A stretch of DNA of 64,000 nt from Alphaproteobacteria bacterium (GTDB lineage Bacteria > Pseudomonadota > Alphaproteobacteria > Bin95). The stretch spans positions 2,372 through 66,371 of the forward strand of contig CBFIAF010000019.1 of assembly GCA_965660545.1 (NCBI GenBank). Reading direction: 5' to 3'. Made by a program: the position numbers and the translations under genes. Numbering within the stretch: the stretch's first letter is position 1; every line of letters starts with the position of its first letter. Positions 31,563 to 38,741 of this stretch are shown here, piece after piece. The notes below the pieces were generated by a model. The model saw only the letters and a program-made list of their open reading frames with translations, was not told where the DNA came from and made no database searches.

Positions 31563-31963
31563 CTGACATGACCCCCAACACCCCTGAAATCGTGGAAGAA
31601 GTCCGCGTCAAGTTTGAGCGCTATGAACAGGCGCTGATCGATAAAAACGTGGATGTTCTGGATGACACATTCTGGGAAAGTCCGTTGGCGACCCGGCTCG
31701 CGATGCATGAACACGGCTACGGCTTTGACGAGATCCACGCTCACCGCGTCGCCCGCCCACCAGGGCCGGGCATCAAAGAGGAACGGTTGCGGCTGGATAT
31801 CCTCACCCTTGGCCGCGATTTCGCCAATGTCAGCCTCGAGTTTAAAGTGCGCGGCAAAGATTTGATCGGCCGTCAGACCCAAGTTTGGGCGCGCCTACCA
31901 GACGTTGGCTGGAAGGTCGTCTTCGCCCATGTCTCGACCGTGGAACACGACGCGCTCTGGTAA
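31559..31963 (+). CDS. AtzH-like / HpxZ (DUF3225) protein
   Basis: FERYEQAL..NVDVLD..FW, GRQTQVW, GWKVVFAHVS. Confidence 0.82.
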   Translation: MTDMTPNTPEIVEEVRVKFERYEQALIDKNVDVLDDTFWESPLATRLAMHEHGYGFDEIHAHRVARPPGPGIKEERLRLDILTLGRDFANVSLEFKVRGKDLIGRQTQVWARLPDVGWKVVFAHVSTVEHDALW

Positions 31964-31975
31964 GTTGGTTCTGGG

Positions 31976-32820
31976 TCAGACGGCGGTATGCGCCGGCTGG
32001 CCCGCAACGCCTTTGTATAGAACGGCCTGGCGAAGCTGTATGATTCGCGCATGCTCTGCCCTGGCGGCGTCGTCCACATCGGCAACCGGCGGCGTTTCCA
32101 GCACGAAATTGCCGTGAGTGTCGCCTCCGCGCACGAGCCATGCGGAATCAGCATCCCCATTCACCTCAGATACATTCAGCGTGATGTAGCGGACGGCGAC
32201 GCCGATTCGGTGCTCACTGGATTGGTTCGGTTCAGATGCGTGCACGGTGCGGACGTGATGTAGCGAGAGTTCGCCCGGCTGTAGCGGACAGAACACATCT
32301 TTATCATCGTCCACTTCGATGGCGATTTCTTGGCCGCGCGTCAGCAGGTTATCTGCGGCGAGGGTATCCCGATGCGGGGTCTGGTCCAGATTTTGGGAGC
32401 CGGGCAGCATTTTCATGCAGCCGCTTTCCAACGTCGTGGGCGACAGCGCGATCCATGCCGTTGTGACGCTTGGCTTGGATAGGCCCCAATATGTGGAATC
32501 CTGGTGCCATGTGACAAAGCCTGGCGTATGTGCGTCCTTCACGAACAAGCTCTCATACCCCAGACCATCAGGTCCGGCCCCAACACATCTTCTACGGCAT
32601 CTAGCACACGCAGATGGCTTGCAAGCTCTGCCGCCCAGGTCTGCAGGAGGTAGAGCTTCTGGCCTTTGGATGGCTCATACCACCCAACATTCGCTGCCTC
32701 ATAGGCCTCGAACCGAGTATGGAATGCAGCCATATCCTCAGGCTATAACGCAGGTACAGGGGCGATGAAGCCGTCGCGCTTGTAGGCGGCGGATTGGGTA
32801 GATGACAGGGATTTTGGTAT
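31976..32820 (-). pseudogene. PhyH-family dioxygenase pseudogene
   Basis: Likely start now ATA (32820), in-frame TAG after RDGFIAPVPAL, and a frameshift near 32550 (GMRACS instead of GMSLFVK). The WHQD and distal His motifs survive in the 3' piece. Confidence 0.8.
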
Positions 32821-32824
32821 GACG

Positions 32825-34246
32825 TTATTCCGCTGCGACGGCGGCGGGTGCATCCGCCCATTTTGGTCTATCGCCGCCAAGCACCGGCGATGGCCGCGCC
32901 CAATATGGCGGCGTCTTGGAAAGCTTCAGAACAGGTCCCAAATGCCGGATGGGCCCATATGCAGGTGCCGATTCAATCCGCATGGCTGCCAATTCATCAT
33001 CGCTGAATTCCATGCCGTCCTGGACAGGGGCAGTTTTGCCCTGGCGATAGATCAGCATGCCAGACCGGCAGAGTGAGACGCGCACATGATAGCTGCCTCC
33101 TTCCCGCGCGCGACGGGCAAGCGCGAGGAGCATGCCGTAAGCTGCCAGATATCCCGTGACATAGTCATTGGCGGCGGCTGGCAAAAGTTTCGGCCGTTCC
33201 GGGCTGCCTTCAGCCGCGATGCCGACCATAGTTTGCGCCACTTGTTCCCATCCGGCGCGATGGCTGAACGGACCATCCGCGCCATAGCAGCTAATGGAAG
33301 CGTAGATGATGCCTGGGCGGATTGCCGCCGCTTGTTCCGGCCCAAACCCAAGCCCTTCAAGCATGCCAGGGCGGTAGCCTTGCGAGAAGATATCGGCGTC
33401 CGCCAGCAGTGCCCGCAATTGCGCGGCCTCTTCGGCATTCTTGAGGTCTAGGAAGCAGGAGCGCTTGCCATGGCTGGTGTCGATCACGTGTTCTGGAACC
33501 TGCGGCAGGCGTTCGGCTGTCACCATCAACACTTCAGCGCCATGTTCCGCCAGCGTGCGCCCAGAAATTGGGCCAGCTAGGATGCGAGTCAGGTCCAACG
33601 CTTTGATGCCGCTGAGCGGACGAGGACCCTCCGGCATCGGCTCAGGGTCGCTATCACCAATTTTGATGATTTCGACGATTGGCTTTGTCGCTAGCACCTG
33701 GCCGTGTGGTGTTGCCAGCCATTCATCATTGGAACGCACCATGCCGCCGCAGGTACGGATTTCGTCAATGGCGTTTTCAAGGTCCATCGCATCCCATTTG
33801 GCAACGGCGGGCGCGATGGAGGCGGGGATTAGGTCGCAATCCAGTAGCTTCAGCATCCGTGCTTGCAGATGGGGCAGGTTGAAATGCGGCAGGACATAGC
33901 GGCCATCCTTGGTCGGGTAGGGCTGCGTTACCTGCATCATCTTTTCATGCGCCGCGTTCACAATGGTTTTGAACGCGCCATCCGGCCCTGGTCGTTGCAG
34001 ATAACTTGTACTGCGAAGCGCTGCGGCGGCATGGCGGACATCGACTGCCGCCTTTTGCCGCTTACCAGTTTTCAGCTCCCAAATATCGTTGACCGCAACG
34101 CCAATGCCGCCAAGCACAGCAGCCGCCGTTTCGCCAATTTTGAAGCGCGTGGATACGACTGGATCAGCGCCTGTGATGGTCACCTCGTCAGCGGCAGGCG
34201 TTCTCAAGCCGCGTGCGGCTAAGACTTCATCGAATGCGGTGGTCAT
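32825..34246 (-). CDS. Class III CoA-transferase (CaiB/BaiF family)
   Basis: PLSGIKALDLTRILAGP, GKRS..LDLK, QGYRPG, ANDYVTG (catalytic Asp). Confidence 0.88.
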   Translation of the reverse strand: MTTAFDEVLAARGLRTPAADEVTITGADPVVSTRFKIGETAAAVLGGIGVAVNDIWELKTGKRQKAAVDVRHAAAALRSTSYLQRPGPDGAFKTIVNAAHEKMMQVTQPYPTKDGRYVLPHFNLPHLQARMLKLLDCDLIPASIAPAVAKWDAMDLENAIDEIRTCGGMVRSNDEWLATPHGQVLATKPIVEIIKIGDSDPEPMPEGPRPLSGIKALDLTRILAGPISGRTLAEHGAEVLMVTAERLPQVPEHVIDTSHGKRSCFLDLKNAEEAAQLRALLADADIFSQGYRPGMLEGLGFGPEQAAAIRPGIIYASISCYGADGPFSHRAGWEQVAQTMVGIAAEGSPERPKLLPAAANDYVTGYLAAYGMLLALARRAREGGSYHVRVSLCRSGMLIYRQGKTAPVQDGMEFSDDELAAMRIESAPAYGPIRHLGPVLKLSKTPPYWARPSPVLGGDRPKWADAPAAVAAE

Positions 34247-34273
34247 TGAAGTTGGTCCTTCACGTGAGGCAAT

Positions 34274-35374
34274 TTAGGCGCTTTGCTTTTGGCGTTTTGT
34301 TGTTTCGCCAGCGCCGCCATCGACAGCTTCCAATGGGGCATTCAATGCCGCACCTGGGCAATGAATGCCAGCGGGGCGGCCTGCGGGGTTCAGCCCTTGC
34401 TGCTCGATATGGCTTGCAGGCACATCTGGTCCTCCAGGGCAGCCAAGCCAGAGGCGCAGCAGGTGGCGGCGGCGCTCCAGGTCTGGCCAGTCCTCATATT
34501 TAGTGCGACTATGCAGGACGGTGTGATTACAGACGAACTGCATATCGCCTGGTTCAAATTCCATGTCCAGGCGGAATTCTTCACTGCCGGCGAGGGCGTC
34601 CAGCGCATCAAACGCGGCCTCTTGCTCCAGCGTGACACGCGGCACGTCATCAAAGCGTTGGGCTTTGCGGATGGCGCTGCGGACATAATGGCCAAAGATG
34701 CGCCCTTCGTGGGCCTGGAATACGGGCATTGGGTACCAGGGGCGGCGGCCTTCTGGAATTTCGTCCCGGCGGTCCCGATATGTCAGCTGCATCAGGACTG
34801 CCAGATGCTCTGGATGCCGCTCGATCATGGCGTGGTAGAGCGCGGTTGAGGATACGGCGCTGGAAAGCCCGCCGGTCTTCGATGTTTTGATGGATAGCAG
34901 CCCGACAACATCGCCTGCATCGCAGTGATAGGGCAGGCGTTCTGCCGTTTGATAGCCCCTGGAACTCGGTTGGCTGTAATCGAAGCCAAGGTCGCGGACA
35001 TGGCCAAGCGCATGCCCCGCCGCGTTTTGCGACACGGCGTCGCCAAGGTGCAGCCCGACTGCCCAGAACGCCGTCGCGGCTTGGCGCAGATTGTAGCGAT
35101 CAATCGGAAATCCTCGAATAAGTGATAGCCCAACGCCGTCCAGCACATTCGCTTTGATCTCTTTCAGCTTCGGTGCGAGGTGCGGCAAGGGCAGGTCGCT
35201 TGCGGTGACTTTTGTCAGATCATCTGTCCGATCACCTTCCGCTGCGATCACGGCTTCAAGGTCGCCAAGCTCGGCTGCTGAAAGGTCGTGCATCCAGCGG
35301 TCTGGCGCTTTCGCTAGGTCTGAACCCTTCCAGTTGGCGGGGCTTGCATCGAAGCGAGGGAAGCTATCTAGCAT
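34274..35374 (-). CDS. TauD/TfdA-family Fe(II)/2OG dioxygenase
   Basis: YHCD (HxD), NHTVLHSRT, RRHLLRLWL. Confidence 0.85.
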   Translation of the reverse strand: MLDSFPRFDASPANWKGSDLAKAPDRWMHDLSAAELGDLEAVIAAEGDRTDDLTKVTASDLPLPHLAPKLKEIKANVLDGVGLSLIRGFPIDRYNLRQAATAFWAVGLHLGDAVSQNAAGHALGHVRDLGFDYSQPSSRGYQTAERLPYHCDAGDVVGLLSIKTSKTGGLSSAVSSTALYHAMIERHPEHLAVLMQLTYRDRRDEIPEGRRPWYPMPVFQAHEGRIFGHYVRSAIRKAQRFDDVPRVTLEQEAAFDALDALAGSEEFRLDMEFEPGDMQFVCNHTVLHSRTKYEDWPDLERRRHLLRLWLGCPGGPDVPASHIEQQGLNPAGRPAGIHCPGAALNAPLEAVDGGAGETTKRQKQSA

Positions 35375-35384
35375 TTGATCCTCC

Positions 35385-36257
35385 TTATTCTTGTCGCAGG
35401 GCCTTGGCGGCGTTCTGCTTGTCGCGGCGTTCGCCGCCTTCGGCCTTCAAGCGGGCACGAATTTCAGGCGTCAGGCGATTATAGCGCCCACGCCATTCTG
35501 GGTCCGGCCAAACGAAATCAGTTTCGACGGTTTGCATCGGCTCATTCGCGTTTTCCAGCGTGTCGAGTGCAATGCCGACAACGTCGCGCTGCATGTCGCG
35601 CTTCCAGGGTTCGCCCGTTGGATTACCCAGGGGGAAATCCAGGAAGACAAACCGGGGCGCGCCGCAATATTCAACGATATCCCGGGCGGACCCGATAACC
35701 ACTGTCGGAATGCCGTTCGCTTCAAGACGGCGTGCAACCAGACTCACGGTCTGGTGACACACGGGTCAAAGCGGGGAGAGGACAGCGACGTCTGCGCCAT
35801 CCGCTTGGACGCGCTCCAGAATTTCTGGCGCATGTCGCTGCATCGTCATGCGGTGGCTGTAGACTGTTGGGGCGCCGAAGAAATGATCGGTCACTCCTCC
35901 GATCCGGCCTTCGCGCGCAAAGCCTTGCATTGTCTCAATGGGCAGGAAGCTCTCACGGTCATCCGTGTGTGTGCTTTCCTTGTCCCAGGCCGTGTTCATG
36001 GTGAACAGGGCATCGGGCGGTGGGGCCGTTGGGCCAGCCCAAACATGGCGAACGCCCTTGGCGTCAATATTCGTCTGGCTTTTGTCGCTGGCTGTTGTGA
36101 TGAGTGCAACACGGCTATCCGCCAGCGGCTTTTTCAGCGGCGTGAAAGGCGCGTCTTCGTTGTGCGCCCAGACGTAATCCTTGTCATAGCCCATCGCCCT
36201 ATAATATTGGCGTGTCCGCTCCATATACGGAATGGGGGCATTTGATCCTCCGCTCAT
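35385..36257 (-). CDS. Glycine/sarcosine/betaine/D-proline reductase selenoprotein-B-like protein (Sec at UGA 35768-35766)
   Basis: Track ORFs 35766..36269 and 35385..35762 share one frame: VAVLSPL-U-PVCHQTVSLVARRLEANGIPTV. PFTPLKKPLADSRVALITTA and FPLGNP are family motifs, and a SECIS hairpin follows the UGA. GGAGG RBS precedes ATG 36257 (alternative start 36269). Confidence 0.85.
35731..35763 (-). promoter_or_regulatory. Bacterial SECIS element
   Basis: mRNA UGA-CC-CGUGUG-UC-ACCAGAC-CGUGA-GUCUGGU-UGCACG: perfect 7-bp upper stem, 6-bp lower stem with two G-U pairs, GU in the loop, loop starting after a 17-nt spacer from the UGA. Confidence 0.8.
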
Positions 36258-36428
36258 CTGATCCTCCATGTCCTATTGCTGCATCAGGATGGCCCAAACC
36301 GTTGAACGCGGGCAAGCCCGCTGCGATTGCGCCTTGTCGTCGGCATATGTCTGCCGCGCAAACGATGTAGAACAATCGCTTCAGCTATATTTGCGTAAGC
36401 CAGGACCGAAATTGAAGGGAACCACCAG

Positions 36429-36824
36429 ATGCTAGAGGGCAAATGTCATTGCGGCGAAGCAGGGTGGACGCTTAAGGACATGCCTGAATCAGTAACCGTT
36501 TGCAGTTGAACGGTTTGCCGTCGATATGGTGTGCTTTGGGCTTACGGCTATATTGGCGATGATAGCCATTATATCGGAACAACAACGACTTACCACCGCA
36601 AGGATGGCCGCACCATAGACTTTCATCGCTGCGCTAAATGTGGGTGCGTAATCCACTACGTTAAGACAACAGCTGAGGCAGACGGGCGCCACCGGACCGC
36701 AGTGAATATACGTATGACCGATCCTGCTTTGATCTTCGACCTCCCAATCGTCCAATTCGATGGCCTAGAGACTTTTGAGAACTTACCACGTGATGGACGT
36801 AAGGTCAGCGATATGTGGTTTTGA
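36429..36824 (+). CDS. GFA (Mss4-like Zn) family protein with in-frame TGA at a conserved Cys (selenoprotein candidate or pseudogene)
   Basis: MLEGKCHCG...VTVCS-TGA(36507-36509)-TVCRRYG...FHRCAKCGC...AVNIRM; GAAGGGA RBS upstream. Confidence 0.7.
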
Positions 36825-36990
36825 AACCAACAAAAAAAGCCTCGATTGAGCGAAGTGATGTACCCGGCAACGGAAGCCCCGCGTTCTAGGCCTTGCCAGT
36901 TGAAGGTCACAACAGAAATTTGCTGCACCCTGTAAGTCTTCGGGCGAGCATAAAAATTGGATATTAACGACCGTTTTAGGAAGTAACAAT

Positions 36991-37737
36991 ATGACTCGCA
37001 TTATGATGGTTACCGGCGCGGGGCGTGGTATTGGCCGGGCGACTGCGATTTTGGCCGCAAAAGCAGATTATAGCGTCTGCATCAACTATGCTGAGGATGT
37101 GCAATCGGCTGAGGAAACTTGTGCCGAATGCGCGGGAACTGGCGTGGCGGTGAACATCTTCAAGGCGAATTTTGCGGATCCATCAGATGTGCGGGCACTG
37201 TTTGCGCATTGCGACAACACGCTGGGGCCTGTGGCCGCACTGATCAACAATGCTGGTATCATCGGCCGATCTGTGAAGCTCGCTGATCTGGAATCATCGG
37301 TATTGCTGGATACCTTTGCGGTGAATGTGCCTGGCTCCATTTATTGCTGCCAGGAAGCGATCCAGCGCATGTCGAACAAGTTGGGTGGGAAAGGCGGGGC
37401 AATCGTCAATATTACGTCTGCCGCGGCTTATACAGGCAGTCCGAATGAGTATGTGCATTATGCAGCGTCTAAGGCGGCGCTAGAGACGCTGACAATTGGC
37501 CTCGCCGAGGAAGTCGGACCATAGGGCATTCGTGTTAATGGCGTCCGTGCAGGCTCGATTGACACGGGCATTCATGCCCGCTCGGGCAATCCAGACGGTC
37601 CCGCAATAGTCGCCAACATTTCACCGCTCCGCCGGGTGGCAGAGCCGGAAGAAATGGCGGAAGCCGCACTCTGGCTGGCGTCAGGCAAAGCCAGCTATGC
37701 CAATGGGACTATTCTGGGGATGACGGGCGGGCTTTAG
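36991..37737 (+). pseudogene. SDR-family oxidoreductase with premature TAG
   Basis: TGAGRGIG, NNAG, YAASK. TAG at 37522-37524, then the same frame continues GIRVNGVRAG...MTGGL to a stop at 37737. Confidence 0.78.
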
Positions 37738-38741
37738 GTCGCGATGCGGATCGCCAGCTTGCCAGTGTTTCCGCCCTCGAACAGCATGCGCAGGCCGGAT
37801 GGGGCGTGCTCCAAGCCGTTCAGGATGTGTAGGCGCTGTTGCAGGCGACCTGCTTTTAACTCGCCAGCAAGCCATGCCCGGGCCTCGCCATAGCGGGCGT
37901 TATAATCAGAGACGATGAAGCCCTGAACCCGCAATCGCTTGCCGATGGCGAGGCCCATATTCTTAACGCCGTAAAGTTCTGCCGCTGCTGTTTGTGAAAT
38001 ACGGCCACAGATTGCTATCCGGCCAAGGGCGGCCATGTTTCCCAGTGCTGCATCCAGTGTTGGCCCGCCGACATTGTCGAAGTAAACATCCACGGCATTT
38101 GGTGCAGCCTGCTTAATTTCGGCGCTGAGGTCCGTCGCGGCCTTGTAATCGATCGTGGCGTCGAGGCGGAGGCTATCGCGAAGCATCGCGCATTTTTCCG
38201 CACCACCTGCAATGCCGATGACACGGCAGTGGTTCAGCGTGCCGACCTGGGCCGCAATCTGCCCAACGGCACCCGCAGCACCCGAAACCAAAACCGTGTC
38301 GCCAGGTTTGACGTTTGCCACCGCCGTCATGCCAAAATAAGCCGTGAGCGCGCTTGTGCCGAGGGGGCCAATCCAGGCTTCAGCGTCGCCCATGGTGAGG
38401 TCCAGCTTGTGTAAGCCTTCGCCAGAAAGCGTTGGGTGGGTTTGCCAGCCAAGTCGGCCCTGGACCAGATCACCCGGTGCTAGGCTATCGATCCGGCTCT
38501 CGACGACCCGCGCAATGCCGCCTGCGCGCATTACAGACCCAAGTTGGATCGGCGGCACATATCCTGGATCTTCGTTCATCCAGACGCGCATGGCTGGGTC
38601 AATCGAGAGCAGCAGCGTTTCCACCAGCACTTCGCCTGTGTCCGGTTGGCGGACGGGTTCCGTCGTTTCATCGAAATGTTCTGGGCCAGCCAGGCCATCG
38701 GGGCGGGCGATCAAGCGGATTTGGCGATTGGCGTTTTGCAT
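37734..38741 (-). CDS. NADP-dependent alkenal reductase (CurA/prostaglandin reductase-like MDR)
   Basis: LSIDPAMR, VSGAAGAVG, DVYFDNVGG, GNTGK. Confidence 0.88.
   Translation of the reverse strand: MQNANRQIRLIARPDGLAGPEHFDETTEPVRQPDTGEVLVETLLLSIDPAMRVWMNEDPGYVPPIQLGSVMRAGGIARVVESRIDSLAPGDLVQGRLGWQTHPTLSGEGLHKLDLTMGDAEAWIGPLGTSALTAYFGMTAVANVKPGDTVLVSGAAGAVGQIAAQVGTLNHCRVIGIAGGAEKCAMLRDSLRLDATIDYKAATDLSAEIKQAAPNAVDVYFDNVGGPTLDAALGNMAALGRIAICGRISQTAAAELYGVKNMGLAIGKRLRVQGFIVSDYNARYGEARAWLAGELKAGRLQQRLHILNGLEHAPSGLRMLFEGGNTGKLAIRIAT

What the first reader, a model, noticed from the sequence alone, without database searches (positions are those of the whole stretch)
35385..36257. Hidden selenoprotein: GrdB/PrdB-like U-x-x-C protein with a clear SECIS
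Seen: two track ORFs join in frame through UGA (SPL-U-PVC), and a 7-bp perfect hairpin with a CGUGA loop follows after a 17-nt spacer. Known: D-proline and glycine reductase B subunits use Sec in a UxxC motif, and bacterial SECIS elements have this geometry. Inference: a ~290-aa selenoprotein that standard callers would split, implying this alphaproteobacterium has the Sec trait.
Basis: partly seen in the sequence, partly recalled or inferred. Interest (0 to 1): 0.85.

Follow-up and report, generated by a model that had tools for sequence, protein, structure and literature searches.

The report
Real selenoprotein gene, known PrdB-like family
This is a genuine selenocysteine-containing gene that ordinary gene callers cut in two, but it belongs to a PrdB-like family already known as a common marine selenoprotein, and its substrate is still unknown.

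Summary
On the minus strand one gene (36257 or 36269 down to 35385) is interrupted by a single in-frame TGA at 35768-35766 (SPL-U-PVC-HQT). A 7-bp hairpin with a CGUGA loop starts 10 nt after the TGA; the loop starts 17 nt after it.

The interpretation also holds.
- The TGA aligns with Cys in every full-length homologue aligned.
- 80 of the 100 related loci examined carry TGA at that codon, and all 80 keep the hairpin.
- The hairpin shows synonymous compensatory changes (CAG/CUG to CAA/UUG, at least 9 switches on a tree). Its loop codons are invariant in TGA forms but free in Cys forms.
- The genome encodes selA, selB, selD and tRNA-Sec(UCA).

It is not new in kind. "Proline reductase PrdB" UxxC selenoproteins were reported as abundant in the Sargasso Sea (2005) and in the GOS ocean survey (2008).

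It is not a true D-proline or glycine reductase. It scores far below the curated cut-offs, and no PrdA/GrdE or GrdA gene was found.

The substrate is unknown. A local operon (TauD-type dioxygenase, family III CoA-transferase) and fusions of relatives to acyl-CoA synthetase, CoA-transferase or kinase domains hint at an activated carboxylic acid. The genome holds four more TGA-containing paralogues.

The parts
35385..36257 (-). Coding sequence of the PrdB/GrdB-like selenoprotein (290 aa from ATG 36257; alternative ATG at 36269 gives 294 aa; stop TAA/TAG-type codon at 35387-35385)
   Evidence: one frame with a single TGA; about 291-aa homologues align end to end. GGAGG (36267-36263) lies 5 nt before ATG 36257 (read). 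The relative P0041 starts MSGGS.
35766..35768 (-). In-frame UGA read as selenocysteine (U168 from ATG 36269; U164 from ATG 36257)
   Evidence: The column is Cys in all 19 full-length homologues. 80 TGA versus 20 TGY in 100 loci.
35757..35759 (-). Codon of the resolving Cys of the U-P-V-C motif
   Evidence: C171 is nearly invariant in alignment A1.
35737..35755 (-). Conserved SECIS core: 7-bp stem (ACCAGAC/GUCUGGU) with a 5-nt apical loop CGUGA, starting 10 nt after the UGA
   Evidence: In 56 distinct TGA-form sequences, five pairs are paired in 56/56, one in 55/56 and the outermost in 48/56. Pair 18-28 is G-C in 33 and A-U in 23 with none unpaired, and switches at least 9 times on the tree. 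Codons ACC GTG AGT are invariant in 80/80, 80/80 and 79/80 TGA forms versus 16/20, 2/20 and 3/20 Cys forms.
35730..35762 (-). Extended helix in this clade only: 6 more pairs (GUGUGU/GCACGC) below the core, with two 1-nt bulges
   Evidence: MFE structure. Not conserved outside close relatives: pairs 7-39, 9-37 and 10-36 are unpaired in 24, 38 and 36 of 56 distinct sequences.
34274..35374 (-). TauD/TfdA-family Fe(II)/2-oxoglutarate dioxygenase gene, starting 10 nt after the selenoprotein stop; probably co-transcribed
   Evidence: PF02668, E 6.9e-32; only a weak NCBIfam hit (TmpA, 25.2 bits against a cut-off of 400). Adjacent in the close relatives L024-L027 and L043-L046 only.
32825..34246 (-). 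Family III CoA-transferase gene (473 aa; the domain starts at about residue 209), third gene of the apparent operon
   Evidence: PF02515, E 2.2e-50; below all equivalog cut-offs. Synteny holds only in close relatives.

Best explanation
One minus-strand gene (36257/36269 to 35385) encodes a 290/294-aa selenoprotein. During translation, the hairpin that begins 10 nt after the UGA at 35768-35766 acts as a bacterial SECIS. It recruits SelB carrying Sec-tRNA(Sec), so selenocysteine is inserted instead of terminating (shown by comparative evidence, not biochemically). The protein is the Sec form of a large family of stand-alone PrdB/GrdB-like proteins with a U/C-P-V-C motif. By homology with PrdB/GrdB (inferred), the selenolate attacks a substrate carbon and reductively cleaves a C-N or similar bond. 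The Cys three residues on then resolves the adduct to a selenenyl-sulfide, which a thiol system re-reduces. Because no PrdA/GrdE pyruvoyl subunit and no GrdA were found, it is not a D-proline or glycine reductase, and the substrate is unknown. The local operon and the domain fusions of relatives suggest, weakly, a carboxylic acid activated as a CoA thioester or similar.
For: A single in-frame TGA joins two ORFs. Cys stands at that column in all 19 full-length homologues. Of 100 related loci, 80 have TGA and 20 TGY. In 41 relatives' genomes, 104 of 106 listed matches carry an in-frame TGA (my count of the table), and all 20 loci fetched from that search have U at the motif. SECIS evidence: the inner stem pairs are kept in 55-56 of 56 distinct sequences. 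Pair 18-28 is G-C 33 / A-U 23 with none unpaired, achieved by two synonymous changes (Gln CAG>CAA with Leu CUG>UUG). Pair 15-31 is C-G 50 / U-A 4. Observed paired cells are 84.8% against 20-43% for structures slid by 1-3 columns. There are at least 9 independent switches of pair 18-28 on an ML tree of 100 loci. Loop codons are invariant in TGA forms and variable in Cys forms. The four paralogues in the same genome have U at the same site; three also have loop CGUGA 17 nt after the UGA, and two of those sit on a quite different stem (GCGCGC). Sec machinery is complete. Homology: PrdB TIGR04483 E 1e-26 over residues 40-247, GrdH 7.8e-14, TIGR01918 8.1e-12. Literature: 'Proline reductase PrdB', UxxC, 42 genes in the Sargasso Sea and 235 Sec plus 110 Cys forms in GOS (passages read). 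Function hints: the TauD and CoA-transferase genes are adjacent on the same strand. The 16 longer relatives found comprise 9 AMP-binding fusions, 3 CoA-transferase III fusions, 3 fructosamine-kinase/APH fusions and 1 LysR, and all carry CPVCHQ.
Against: There is no direct evidence of selenium incorporation or read-through. All curated models are missed: PrdB 93.9 bits against 300, TIGR01918 44.8 against 65.45, Pfam GRDB 18.1 against 22. So the PrdB-type chemistry is an extrapolation from distant homology. The single-sequence fold statistic is modest (z -2.14). The lower stem is not conserved. The operon with the TauD and CoA-transferase genes is conserved only in close relatives of at least 76% identity. 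Across 38 representative loci, no Pfam family recurs in neighbours (at most 4 of 133 ORFs). The fusions belong to a paralogous subgroup of about 36-51% identity and are all Cys forms. The searches for PrdA/GrdE and GrdA also matched none of the 14 control genomes, so they lack a positive control.
Confidence: 0.9

Rival explanations
1. Pseudogene: a Cys-type gene inactivated by a TGY-to-TGA nonsense mutation, with the hairpin being a coincidence of the coding sequence.
For: A TGC/TGT to TGA change is a single substitution. Cys forms exist (20 of 100 loci). The amino acids HQTVSL are conserved in Cys forms too, so part of the hairpin sequence is forced by the protein.
Against: TGA stands at the same codon in 80 of 100 loci spanning 45-95% protein identity, with intact frames on both sides. 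Synonymous positions in the hairpin are frozen only in TGA forms (AGT in 79/80 versus 3/20; GTG in 80/80 versus 2/20). Compensatory synonymous changes occur. The Sec machinery is complete.
Confidence: 0.02
2. Genuine D-proline reductase (PrdB) or glycine/betaine reductase B subunit used for Stickland-type reduction.
For: The best NCBIfam hit is PrdB (E 1e-26). The UxxC motif is present. Sources name homologues 'D-proline reductase (dithiol) PrdB' or 'glycine reductase'. The literature files the marine family under PrdB.
Against: 93.9 bits against the equivalog cut-off of 300; GrdB, GrdF and GrdH models score 38-51 bits against cut-offs of 602-800. No PF09338 (PrdA/GrdE) and no PF04723 (GrdA) match in a genome rated 100% complete (these searches had no positive control). 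None of the neighbour genes scanned is a Prd or Grd gene. The DNA is held by marine water-column metagenomes.
Confidence: 0.03
3. General thiol/selenol redox protein (a disulfide or peroxide reductase using the UxxC pair) with no small-molecule C-X cleavage chemistry.
For: A UxxC motif at a strand-to-helix junction (strand 161-165, helix 171-184 in the model) is typical of redox-active dithiol proteins. No neighbour is conserved across 38 representative loci. There are several paralogues per genome. One paralogue lies 1.5 kb from a DsbD-like gene.
Against: The homology is to the substrate-specific B subunits, not to thioredoxin-fold proteins. The Foldseek PDB search found no match at E 0.001 or better, only weak ones, and none of the listed rows is a thioredoxin-type redox protein. 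Fusions are to substrate-activating enzymes rather than redox partners. One paralogue has U-P-L-D, with no resolving Cys.
Confidence: 0.2
4. The UGA mostly terminates: the cell makes a 163/167-aa N-terminal protein, and separately or rarely a read-through product.
For: Bacterial Sec insertion is never fully efficient (established knowledge). Gene callers produce exactly these fragments.
Against: The N-terminal fragment lacks the catalytic motif and the conserved C-terminal half (FPLGNP and other motifs). No Shine-Dalgarno-like sequence precedes the GTG at 35762, which lies inside the helix. The conservation pattern supports a single protein.
Confidence: 0.03

Closest known systems
'Proline reductase PrdB' UxxC selenoprotein family of marine metagenomes (Zhang, Fomenko & Gladyshev 2005, PMC1088965; Zhang & Gladyshev 2008, PMC2398784; passages and tables read)
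   Same: UxxC motif, assignment to pfam07355, many Sec forms alongside Cys homologues, marine surface-water origin. The window's DNA is held by marine metagenome runs. This is almost certainly the same family.
   Different: I could not compare sequences because the supplements are closed. Those papers treat it as proline reductase and do not mention PrdA (0 occurrences of 'PrdA' in PMC2398784).
D-proline reductase subunit PrdB of Clostridium sticklandii / Clostridioides difficile (NCBIfam TIGR04483)
   Same: Homologous over about 208 residues (E 1e-26), similar size, Sec in a U-x-x-C motif. The catalytic logic is probably shared: a Sec nucleophile and a resolving Cys.
   Different: 93.9 bits against a cut-off of 300. 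About 40 extra N-terminal and 45 extra C-terminal residues. No PrdA found in the genome. No prd-type neighbours. An uncultured marine alphaproteobacterium rather than a Stickland-fermenting Firmicute.
Glycine/sarcosine/betaine reductase selenoprotein B (GrdB/GrdF/GrdH; Pfam PF07355, NCBIfam TIGR01918)
   Same: Residues about 89-243 align with positions about 270-425 of the roughly 431-435-position models, the part that holds the Sec.
   Different: Lacks the N-terminal ~270 residues of GrdB-type proteins. Below all cut-offs. No GrdA or GrdE found.
Bacterial SECIS elements, e.g. [quoted passage not shown]
   Same: The hairpin lies inside the coding sequence just after the UGA and has a 5-nt apical loop, CGUGA, containing G. 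The loop is conserved while the stem co-varies.
   Different: No curated RNA family covers it: the Rfam scan of 35300-36400 gave nothing relevant. The conserved core is short (6-7 bp). Whether this organism's SelB binds it is untested.

Membership tests
Bacterial selenoprotein gene (Sec-decoding UGA) | In-frame UGA aligned with Cys (or Sec) in homologues | tested here: met
   Cys in all 19 full-length homologues; 80 TGA and 20 TGY at that codon in 100 loci.
Bacterial selenoprotein gene (Sec-decoding UGA) | SECIS stem-loop immediately downstream of the UGA with a small G-containing apical loop, supported by covariation | tested here: met
   7-bp stem and loop CGUGA. Pair 18-28 is G-C 33 / A-U 23 with 0 unpaired and at least 9 switches. 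Three of the four paralogues keep the loop, two of them on different stems.
Bacterial selenoprotein gene (Sec-decoding UGA) | selA, selB, selC and selD present in the genome | tested here: met
   all four are above curated cut-offs; tRNA-Sec has anticodon TCA.
Bacterial selenoprotein gene (Sec-decoding UGA) | Selenium actually incorporated at the UGA | not testable with these tools
   Needs 75Se labelling or mass spectrometry. The RNA-library contigs laid cannot show it.
D-proline reductase PrdB (TIGR04483, equivalog) | Score at or above the curated cut-off (300 bits) | tested here: not met
   93.9 bits, E 1e-26.
D-proline reductase PrdB (TIGR04483, equivalog) | Pyruvoyl-forming partner PrdA (PF09338 family) encoded in the genome | tested here: not met
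   no match in the 100%-complete genome. The search also matched none of the 14 control genomes, so there is no positive control.
D-proline reductase PrdB (TIGR04483, equivalog) | U-x-x-C catalytic motif | tested here: met
   U168-P-V-C171.
Glycine/sarcosine/betaine reductase selenoprotein B (PF07355; TIGR01918) | Score at or above the gathering/curated cut-off | tested here: not met
   PF07355 18.1 bits against 22. TIGR01918 44.8 against 65.45; GrdB, GrdF and GrdH 37.8-51.4 against 602-800.
Glycine/sarcosine/betaine reductase selenoprotein B (PF07355; TIGR01918) | Partner selenoprotein A (GrdA, PF04723) present | tested here: not met
   no match. The search matched none of the control genomes either.
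Marine 'PrdB' UxxC selenoprotein family of the Sargasso/GOS surveys | UxxC motif, similarity to pfam07355, Sec and Cys forms, marine metagenomic origin | tested here: met
   (E 0.0018), read against Table 2 of PMC2398784.
Marine 'PrdB' UxxC selenoprotein family of the Sargasso/GOS surveys | Direct sequence identity with the published set | not testable with these tools

The most novel reading that the evidence does not exclude
The stand-alone U/C-x-x-C PrdB-like proteins are a distinct, PrdA-independent class of reductases. They would cleave a C-N or C-S bond next to a carboxyl group that has been activated as a CoA thioester, or by adenylation or phosphorylation. This would replace the pyruvoyl-subunit chemistry of the Stickland enzymes. 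In this organism the selenoprotein, the TauD-type dioxygenase and the family III CoA-transferase would form a pathway for an abundant marine onium or osmolyte compound (betaine- or carnitine-like). That would explain why oxygen-exposed ocean Alphaproteobacteria keep up to five Sec-containing copies.
Probability: 0.12. Interest if true: 0.7.

Novelty: new member of a known kind. Interest (0 to 1): 0.3.

Why it matters
For annotation, the gene should be called as one 290-aa selenoprotein. The same applies to four further paralogues in this genome and to hundreds of split fragments in public protein sets. The family matters because its name, 'proline reductase', is almost certainly wrong outside Stickland fermenters. 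It is among the most abundant ocean selenoprotein families, it has no dedicated curated model and no solved structure, and its substrate is unknown. The fusions to CoA-ligase, CoA-transferase and kinase domains found here give a concrete starting point for testing its function. The very clean synonymous covariation also makes this hairpin a good training case for bacterial SECIS models.

Tried and rejected
**Searches that gave nothing useful**
- Rfam scan of 35300-36400 at E up to 10: three chance-level hits and no SECIS family.
- PDB by sequence profile: 0 matches at E up to 1.
- AlphaFold2 model from a 21-row alignment: mean pLDDT 70.7, pTM 0.74. Foldseek against the PDB: no match at E 0.001 or better, only weak matches to generic alpha/beta domains. 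No fold assignment is claimed.
- Promoter/terminator scan of 31800-37000: 2 promoter-like sites against 2.2 expected and 10 terminator-like sites against 5.0 expected. Nothing usable.

**Gene neighbourhood**
- tblastn of six window neighbours against the loci: the TauD and CoA-transferase genes are adjacent only in close relatives.
- All-against-all clustering of ORFs in 80 loci.
- Pfam scan of 133 neighbour ORFs from 38 representative loci. These came from 40 representatives clustered at 80% identity; L045 and L046 were dropped to fit the size limit, and their neighbours were already known. No family occurs in more than 4 of 133 ORFs. A conserved operon partner is therefore rejected.

**Partner subunits**
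- PF09338 and PF04723 searches of the own genome were negative. They also matched none of the control genomes, so absence is not proven.

**Expression**
- 20 of 24 listed runs hold the stretch or part of it; 14 hold at least half of its words, and all of those are DNA runs labelled marine or seawater.
- Contigs of four RNA-library runs were laid. They cover parts of the gene, but none bridges the UGA with 31 or more letters on both sides. DNA carry-over cannot be excluded, so no claim of transcription or read-through is made.

**Literature on function**
- Searches found no paper on the function of stand-alone PrdB-like proteins. PMC13188914, PMC9312934, PMC5029168 and PMC1794560 were read only as matched passages. 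Supplementary sequence sets of the Sargasso and GOS papers could not be seen.

**Genetic-code alternative**
- Reading TGA as Trp or Gly genome-wide is rejected. Table-11 ORFs around the gene match ordinary Pfam families, selA and selB read without internal stops, and a tRNA-Sec is present.
Full report
**What is there**

The feature lies on the minus strand. Two table-11 ORFs, 36269..35766 (167 aa) and 35762..35385 (125 aa from GTG), share one frame. Reading the single TGA at 35768-35766 as U gives a 294-aa protein with ...DVAVLSPL-U-PVC-HQTVSLVAR.... The real start is probably the second ATG at 36257, giving 290 aa. GGAGG (36267-36263) lies 5 nt upstream of it, and the near-identical database fragment P0041 begins MSGGS.

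The hairpin is as described. The arms ACCAGAC (35755-35749) and GUCUGGU (35743-35737) flank the loop CGUGA (35748-35744). In this sequence the helix continues for six more pairs across two single-base bulges (35762-35757 with 35735-35730). The MFE is -25 kcal/mol, z is -2.14, and 3 of 200 shuffles fold as well. By itself that is only suggestive.

**Is the UGA a Sec codon?**

Three independent lines say yes.

1. Homologues.
   - A search of 5.8 billion proteins returned 6439 hits.
- In an alignment of 20 of the best 120 listed hits, picked by hand, with the query, all 19 full-length proteins have Cys at the U column, in PL-C-PVC-HQT.
   - In the search of 1.84 billion cluster representatives there were 1394 hits at E 0.001 or better. 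By my count of the 150 listed rows, 28 end at query residue 166-167 and 16 begin at 170-176. These are further split genes.

2. Genomes.
   - In 41 genomes (own genome plus relatives), 30 have the family, including 24 of 24 in the same taxonomic family, with 2-5 copies each.
   - 104 of the 106 listed matches contain an in-frame TGA (my count).
   - All 20 loci fetched from that search have U at the motif.
   - A separate scan of one genome per species returned 80 loci, 60 with U and 20 with Cys. One extra motif match in L107 was spurious.
   - Four loci occur in both sets.

3. Machinery.
   - selA and selB lie adjacent on C16.
   - selD is on C7.
   - tRNA-Sec with anticodon TCA is on C80.
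   - All are above curated cut-offs, in a genome rated 100% complete.

**Is the hairpin a SECIS?**

The test is the contrast between TGA forms and Cys forms, which encode almost the same peptide (HQT-V/x-SL).

| Codon | 80 TGA forms | 20 Cys forms |
|---|---|---|
| ACC | 80/80 | 16/20 |
| GTG | 80/80 | 2/20 |
| AGT | 79/80 | 3/20 |

The codons just before the stem (Pro, Val, Cys) vary freely at third positions in both sets.

- The Gln codon is CAG in 38 and CAA in 42 TGA forms. The Leu codon opposite it is CUG in 38 and UUG in 42.
- On 56 distinct sequences this pair is G-C in 33 and A-U in 23, with none unpaired and no G-U intermediate.
- A second pair shows C-G in 50, U-A in 4, U-G in 1 and unpaired in 1.
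- Paired cells are 84.8%, against 20-43% when the 3' partners are slid by 1-3 columns. 0 of 500 column shuffles reach the observed covariation score.
- Related sequences share changes by descent, so I counted changes on a quick ML tree of all 100 loci (96 distinct, active-site residue masked). The G-C/A-U state changes at least 9 times among TGA forms, and Sec/Cys changes at least 3 times.
- The lower six pairs are not conserved outside close relatives, so the functional core is the 6-7-bp stem plus loop.
- The four paralogues in the same genome all have U at the homologous site, each followed by a hairpin. Three have loop CGUGA 17 nt after the UGA, two of them on a quite different stem (GCGCGC/GCGCGC rather than CCAGAC/GUCUGG). 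The fourth has loop GUG.
- One Bradyrhizobium MAG locus (L067) has TGT but still the intact hairpin, which looks like a recent Sec-to-Cys replacement.

**What the protein is**

- It is a distant relative of the substrate-specific selenoprotein B subunits:
  - PrdB TIGR04483, E 1e-26 over residues 40-247;
  - GrdH, 7.8e-14;
  - TIGR01918, 8.1e-12;
  - Pfam GRDB, 0.0018.
- All of these are far below the curated cut-offs: 93.9 against 300, 44.8 against 65.45, 18.1 against 22.
- Two paralogues tested also fall below the cut-offs, and U aligns with U between paralogues.
- No PrdA/GrdE-type (PF09338) or GrdA (PF04723) gene was found in the genome. Those searches lacked a positive control.
- There is no solved relative.
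- The AlphaFold2 model is of medium confidence (pLDDT 70.7). It places U-x-x-C between strand 161-165 and helix 171-184. It found no PDB fold at E 0.001 or better.

So this is a stand-alone PrdB-like protein, not a D-proline or glycine reductase.

**How it probably works**

- Shown by comparative evidence: SelB-dependent Sec insertion at the UGA, directed by the hairpin.
- Inferred from family chemistry (established for PrdB/GrdB, recalled knowledge): the selenolate attacks a substrate carbon and breaks a C-N-type bond. Cys171 resolves the selenoether to a selenenyl-sulfide, which is then re-reduced.
- Local context:
  - A TauD/TfdA-family dioxygenase gene starts 10 nt after the stop codon.
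  - A family III CoA-transferase gene follows it, all on the same strand.
  - Both are below every specific NCBIfam cut-off.
  - This arrangement is kept only in close relatives of at least 76% identity.
- Wider context:
  - Across 38 representative loci, no Pfam family recurs next to the gene (at most 4 of 133 ORFs).
  - The paralogues sit in unrelated contexts, such as downstream of hydantoinase A/B genes or near a DsbD-like gene.
- A search for longer relatives found 16 proteins, all carrying CPVCHQ:
  - 9 with an N-terminal AMP-binding (acyl-CoA synthetase) domain, one cluster with 161 members;
  - 3 with a family III CoA-transferase domain;
  - 3 with a fructosamine-kinase/APH domain;
  - 1 LysR, possibly a gene-calling artefact.
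- They are about 36-51% identical to the query, so they are paralogous.

Together with the CoA-transferase gene in this operon, this points weakly to a substrate that is an activated carboxylic acid. I rate that as a lead, not a finding.

**Comparison with what is known**

- The Sargasso Sea survey lists 'Proline reductase (PrdB)' with a UXXC motif as the third most abundant selenoprotein family: 42 genes against 1 Cys homologue (PMC1088965, passages and tables).
- The GOS survey lists 235 Sec and 110 Cys forms in 38 samples, assigned to pfam07355 (PMC2398784, Table 2). It contains no mention of PrdA.
- Later reviews keep the family under D-proline reductase (PMC9312934 and PMC13188914, passages).
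- The window's DNA is held by marine and seawater metagenome runs: 14 rows with at least half of the sampled words, from 8 studies, 7 of them possible sources.
- The nearest named genome records are uncultured marine Alphaproteobacteria. More distant TGA forms occur in Reyranella, Hyphomicrobiaceae and Acetobacteraceae. Cys forms occur mainly in Bradyrhizobium.

The gene is therefore a new member of a known selenoprotein family in an organism whose Sec trait is unsurprising. What remains open is the function. Three literature searches found nothing on stand-alone PrdB-like proteins.

**Verdict**

Novelty is low: a new member of a known kind. Interest is about 0.3. That score rests mainly on three points: the family is abundant, probably misnamed and functionally uncharacterised; the genome carries five Sec-containing copies; and the SECIS covariation is unusually clean.

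**Tools unavailable**

Noticed in passing
Own genome outside the window: G000:C17:2201-3058(-), C8:55915-56733(+), C30:13457-14056(-), C12:90826-91434(+) (loci L123-L126): Four more PrdB/GrdB-like genes, each with one active-site TGA followed by a hairpin. Three have loop CGUGA and one has GUG. The two long forms (417-442 aa) read PV-U-PNC on a GCGCGC stem. The C8 copy reads U-P-L-D, with no resolving Cys, and sits just downstream of hydantoinase A/B genes.
   Followed up: partly
G000:C7 (locus L010:1387-3573, minus strand): SelD is the C-terminal part of a 728-aa protein whose N-terminal ~300 residues are a pyridine nucleotide-disulfide oxidoreductase domain. This is the Ndh-SelD fusion described as common in marine samples in PMC2398784 (passage read).
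   Followed up: partly
window 36991-37746 (+), stop at 37522-37524: The SDR gene upstream of the selenoprotein has an in-frame stop that is not TGA at codon 178 (EVGP*GIRVNG), where the 88%-identical relative in L045 has Glu and runs on to 248 aa. The frame continues with clear homology after the stop, so this is a nonsense mutation, a strain variant or an assembly error.
   Followed up: partly
window 35737-35768 (-): RNA-library contigs from two runs of one study (X16 and X17) match the window only over the 32-35 nt of UGA plus hairpin and then run on unlike it (tables 7 and 8). Other genes' sequences in the sea share this element nearly letter for letter, as expected for paralogues and relatives carrying the same SECIS.
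   Followed up: no
L067:4463-4510 (Bradyrhizobium sp. MAG): A Cys form (TGT) that still carries the complete hairpin CACCAGACCGTGAGTCTGGT, unlike 19 other Cys forms. It looks like a recent Sec-to-Cys replacement.
   Followed up: no
window 32825-34246 (-): The family III CoA-transferase ORF is 473 aa, but the Pfam domain starts only at about residue 209. The first ~208 residues match no Pfam family. This is either an extra domain or an over-long start call.
   Followed up: no
window 31976-32548 (-): The PhyH-family ORF is only 190 aa and matches just the C-terminal half (positions 99-212 of 213) of the PhyH profile. It may be truncated or have a missed start. It is conserved at 88-93% identity in relatives L043-L046.
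   Followed up: no
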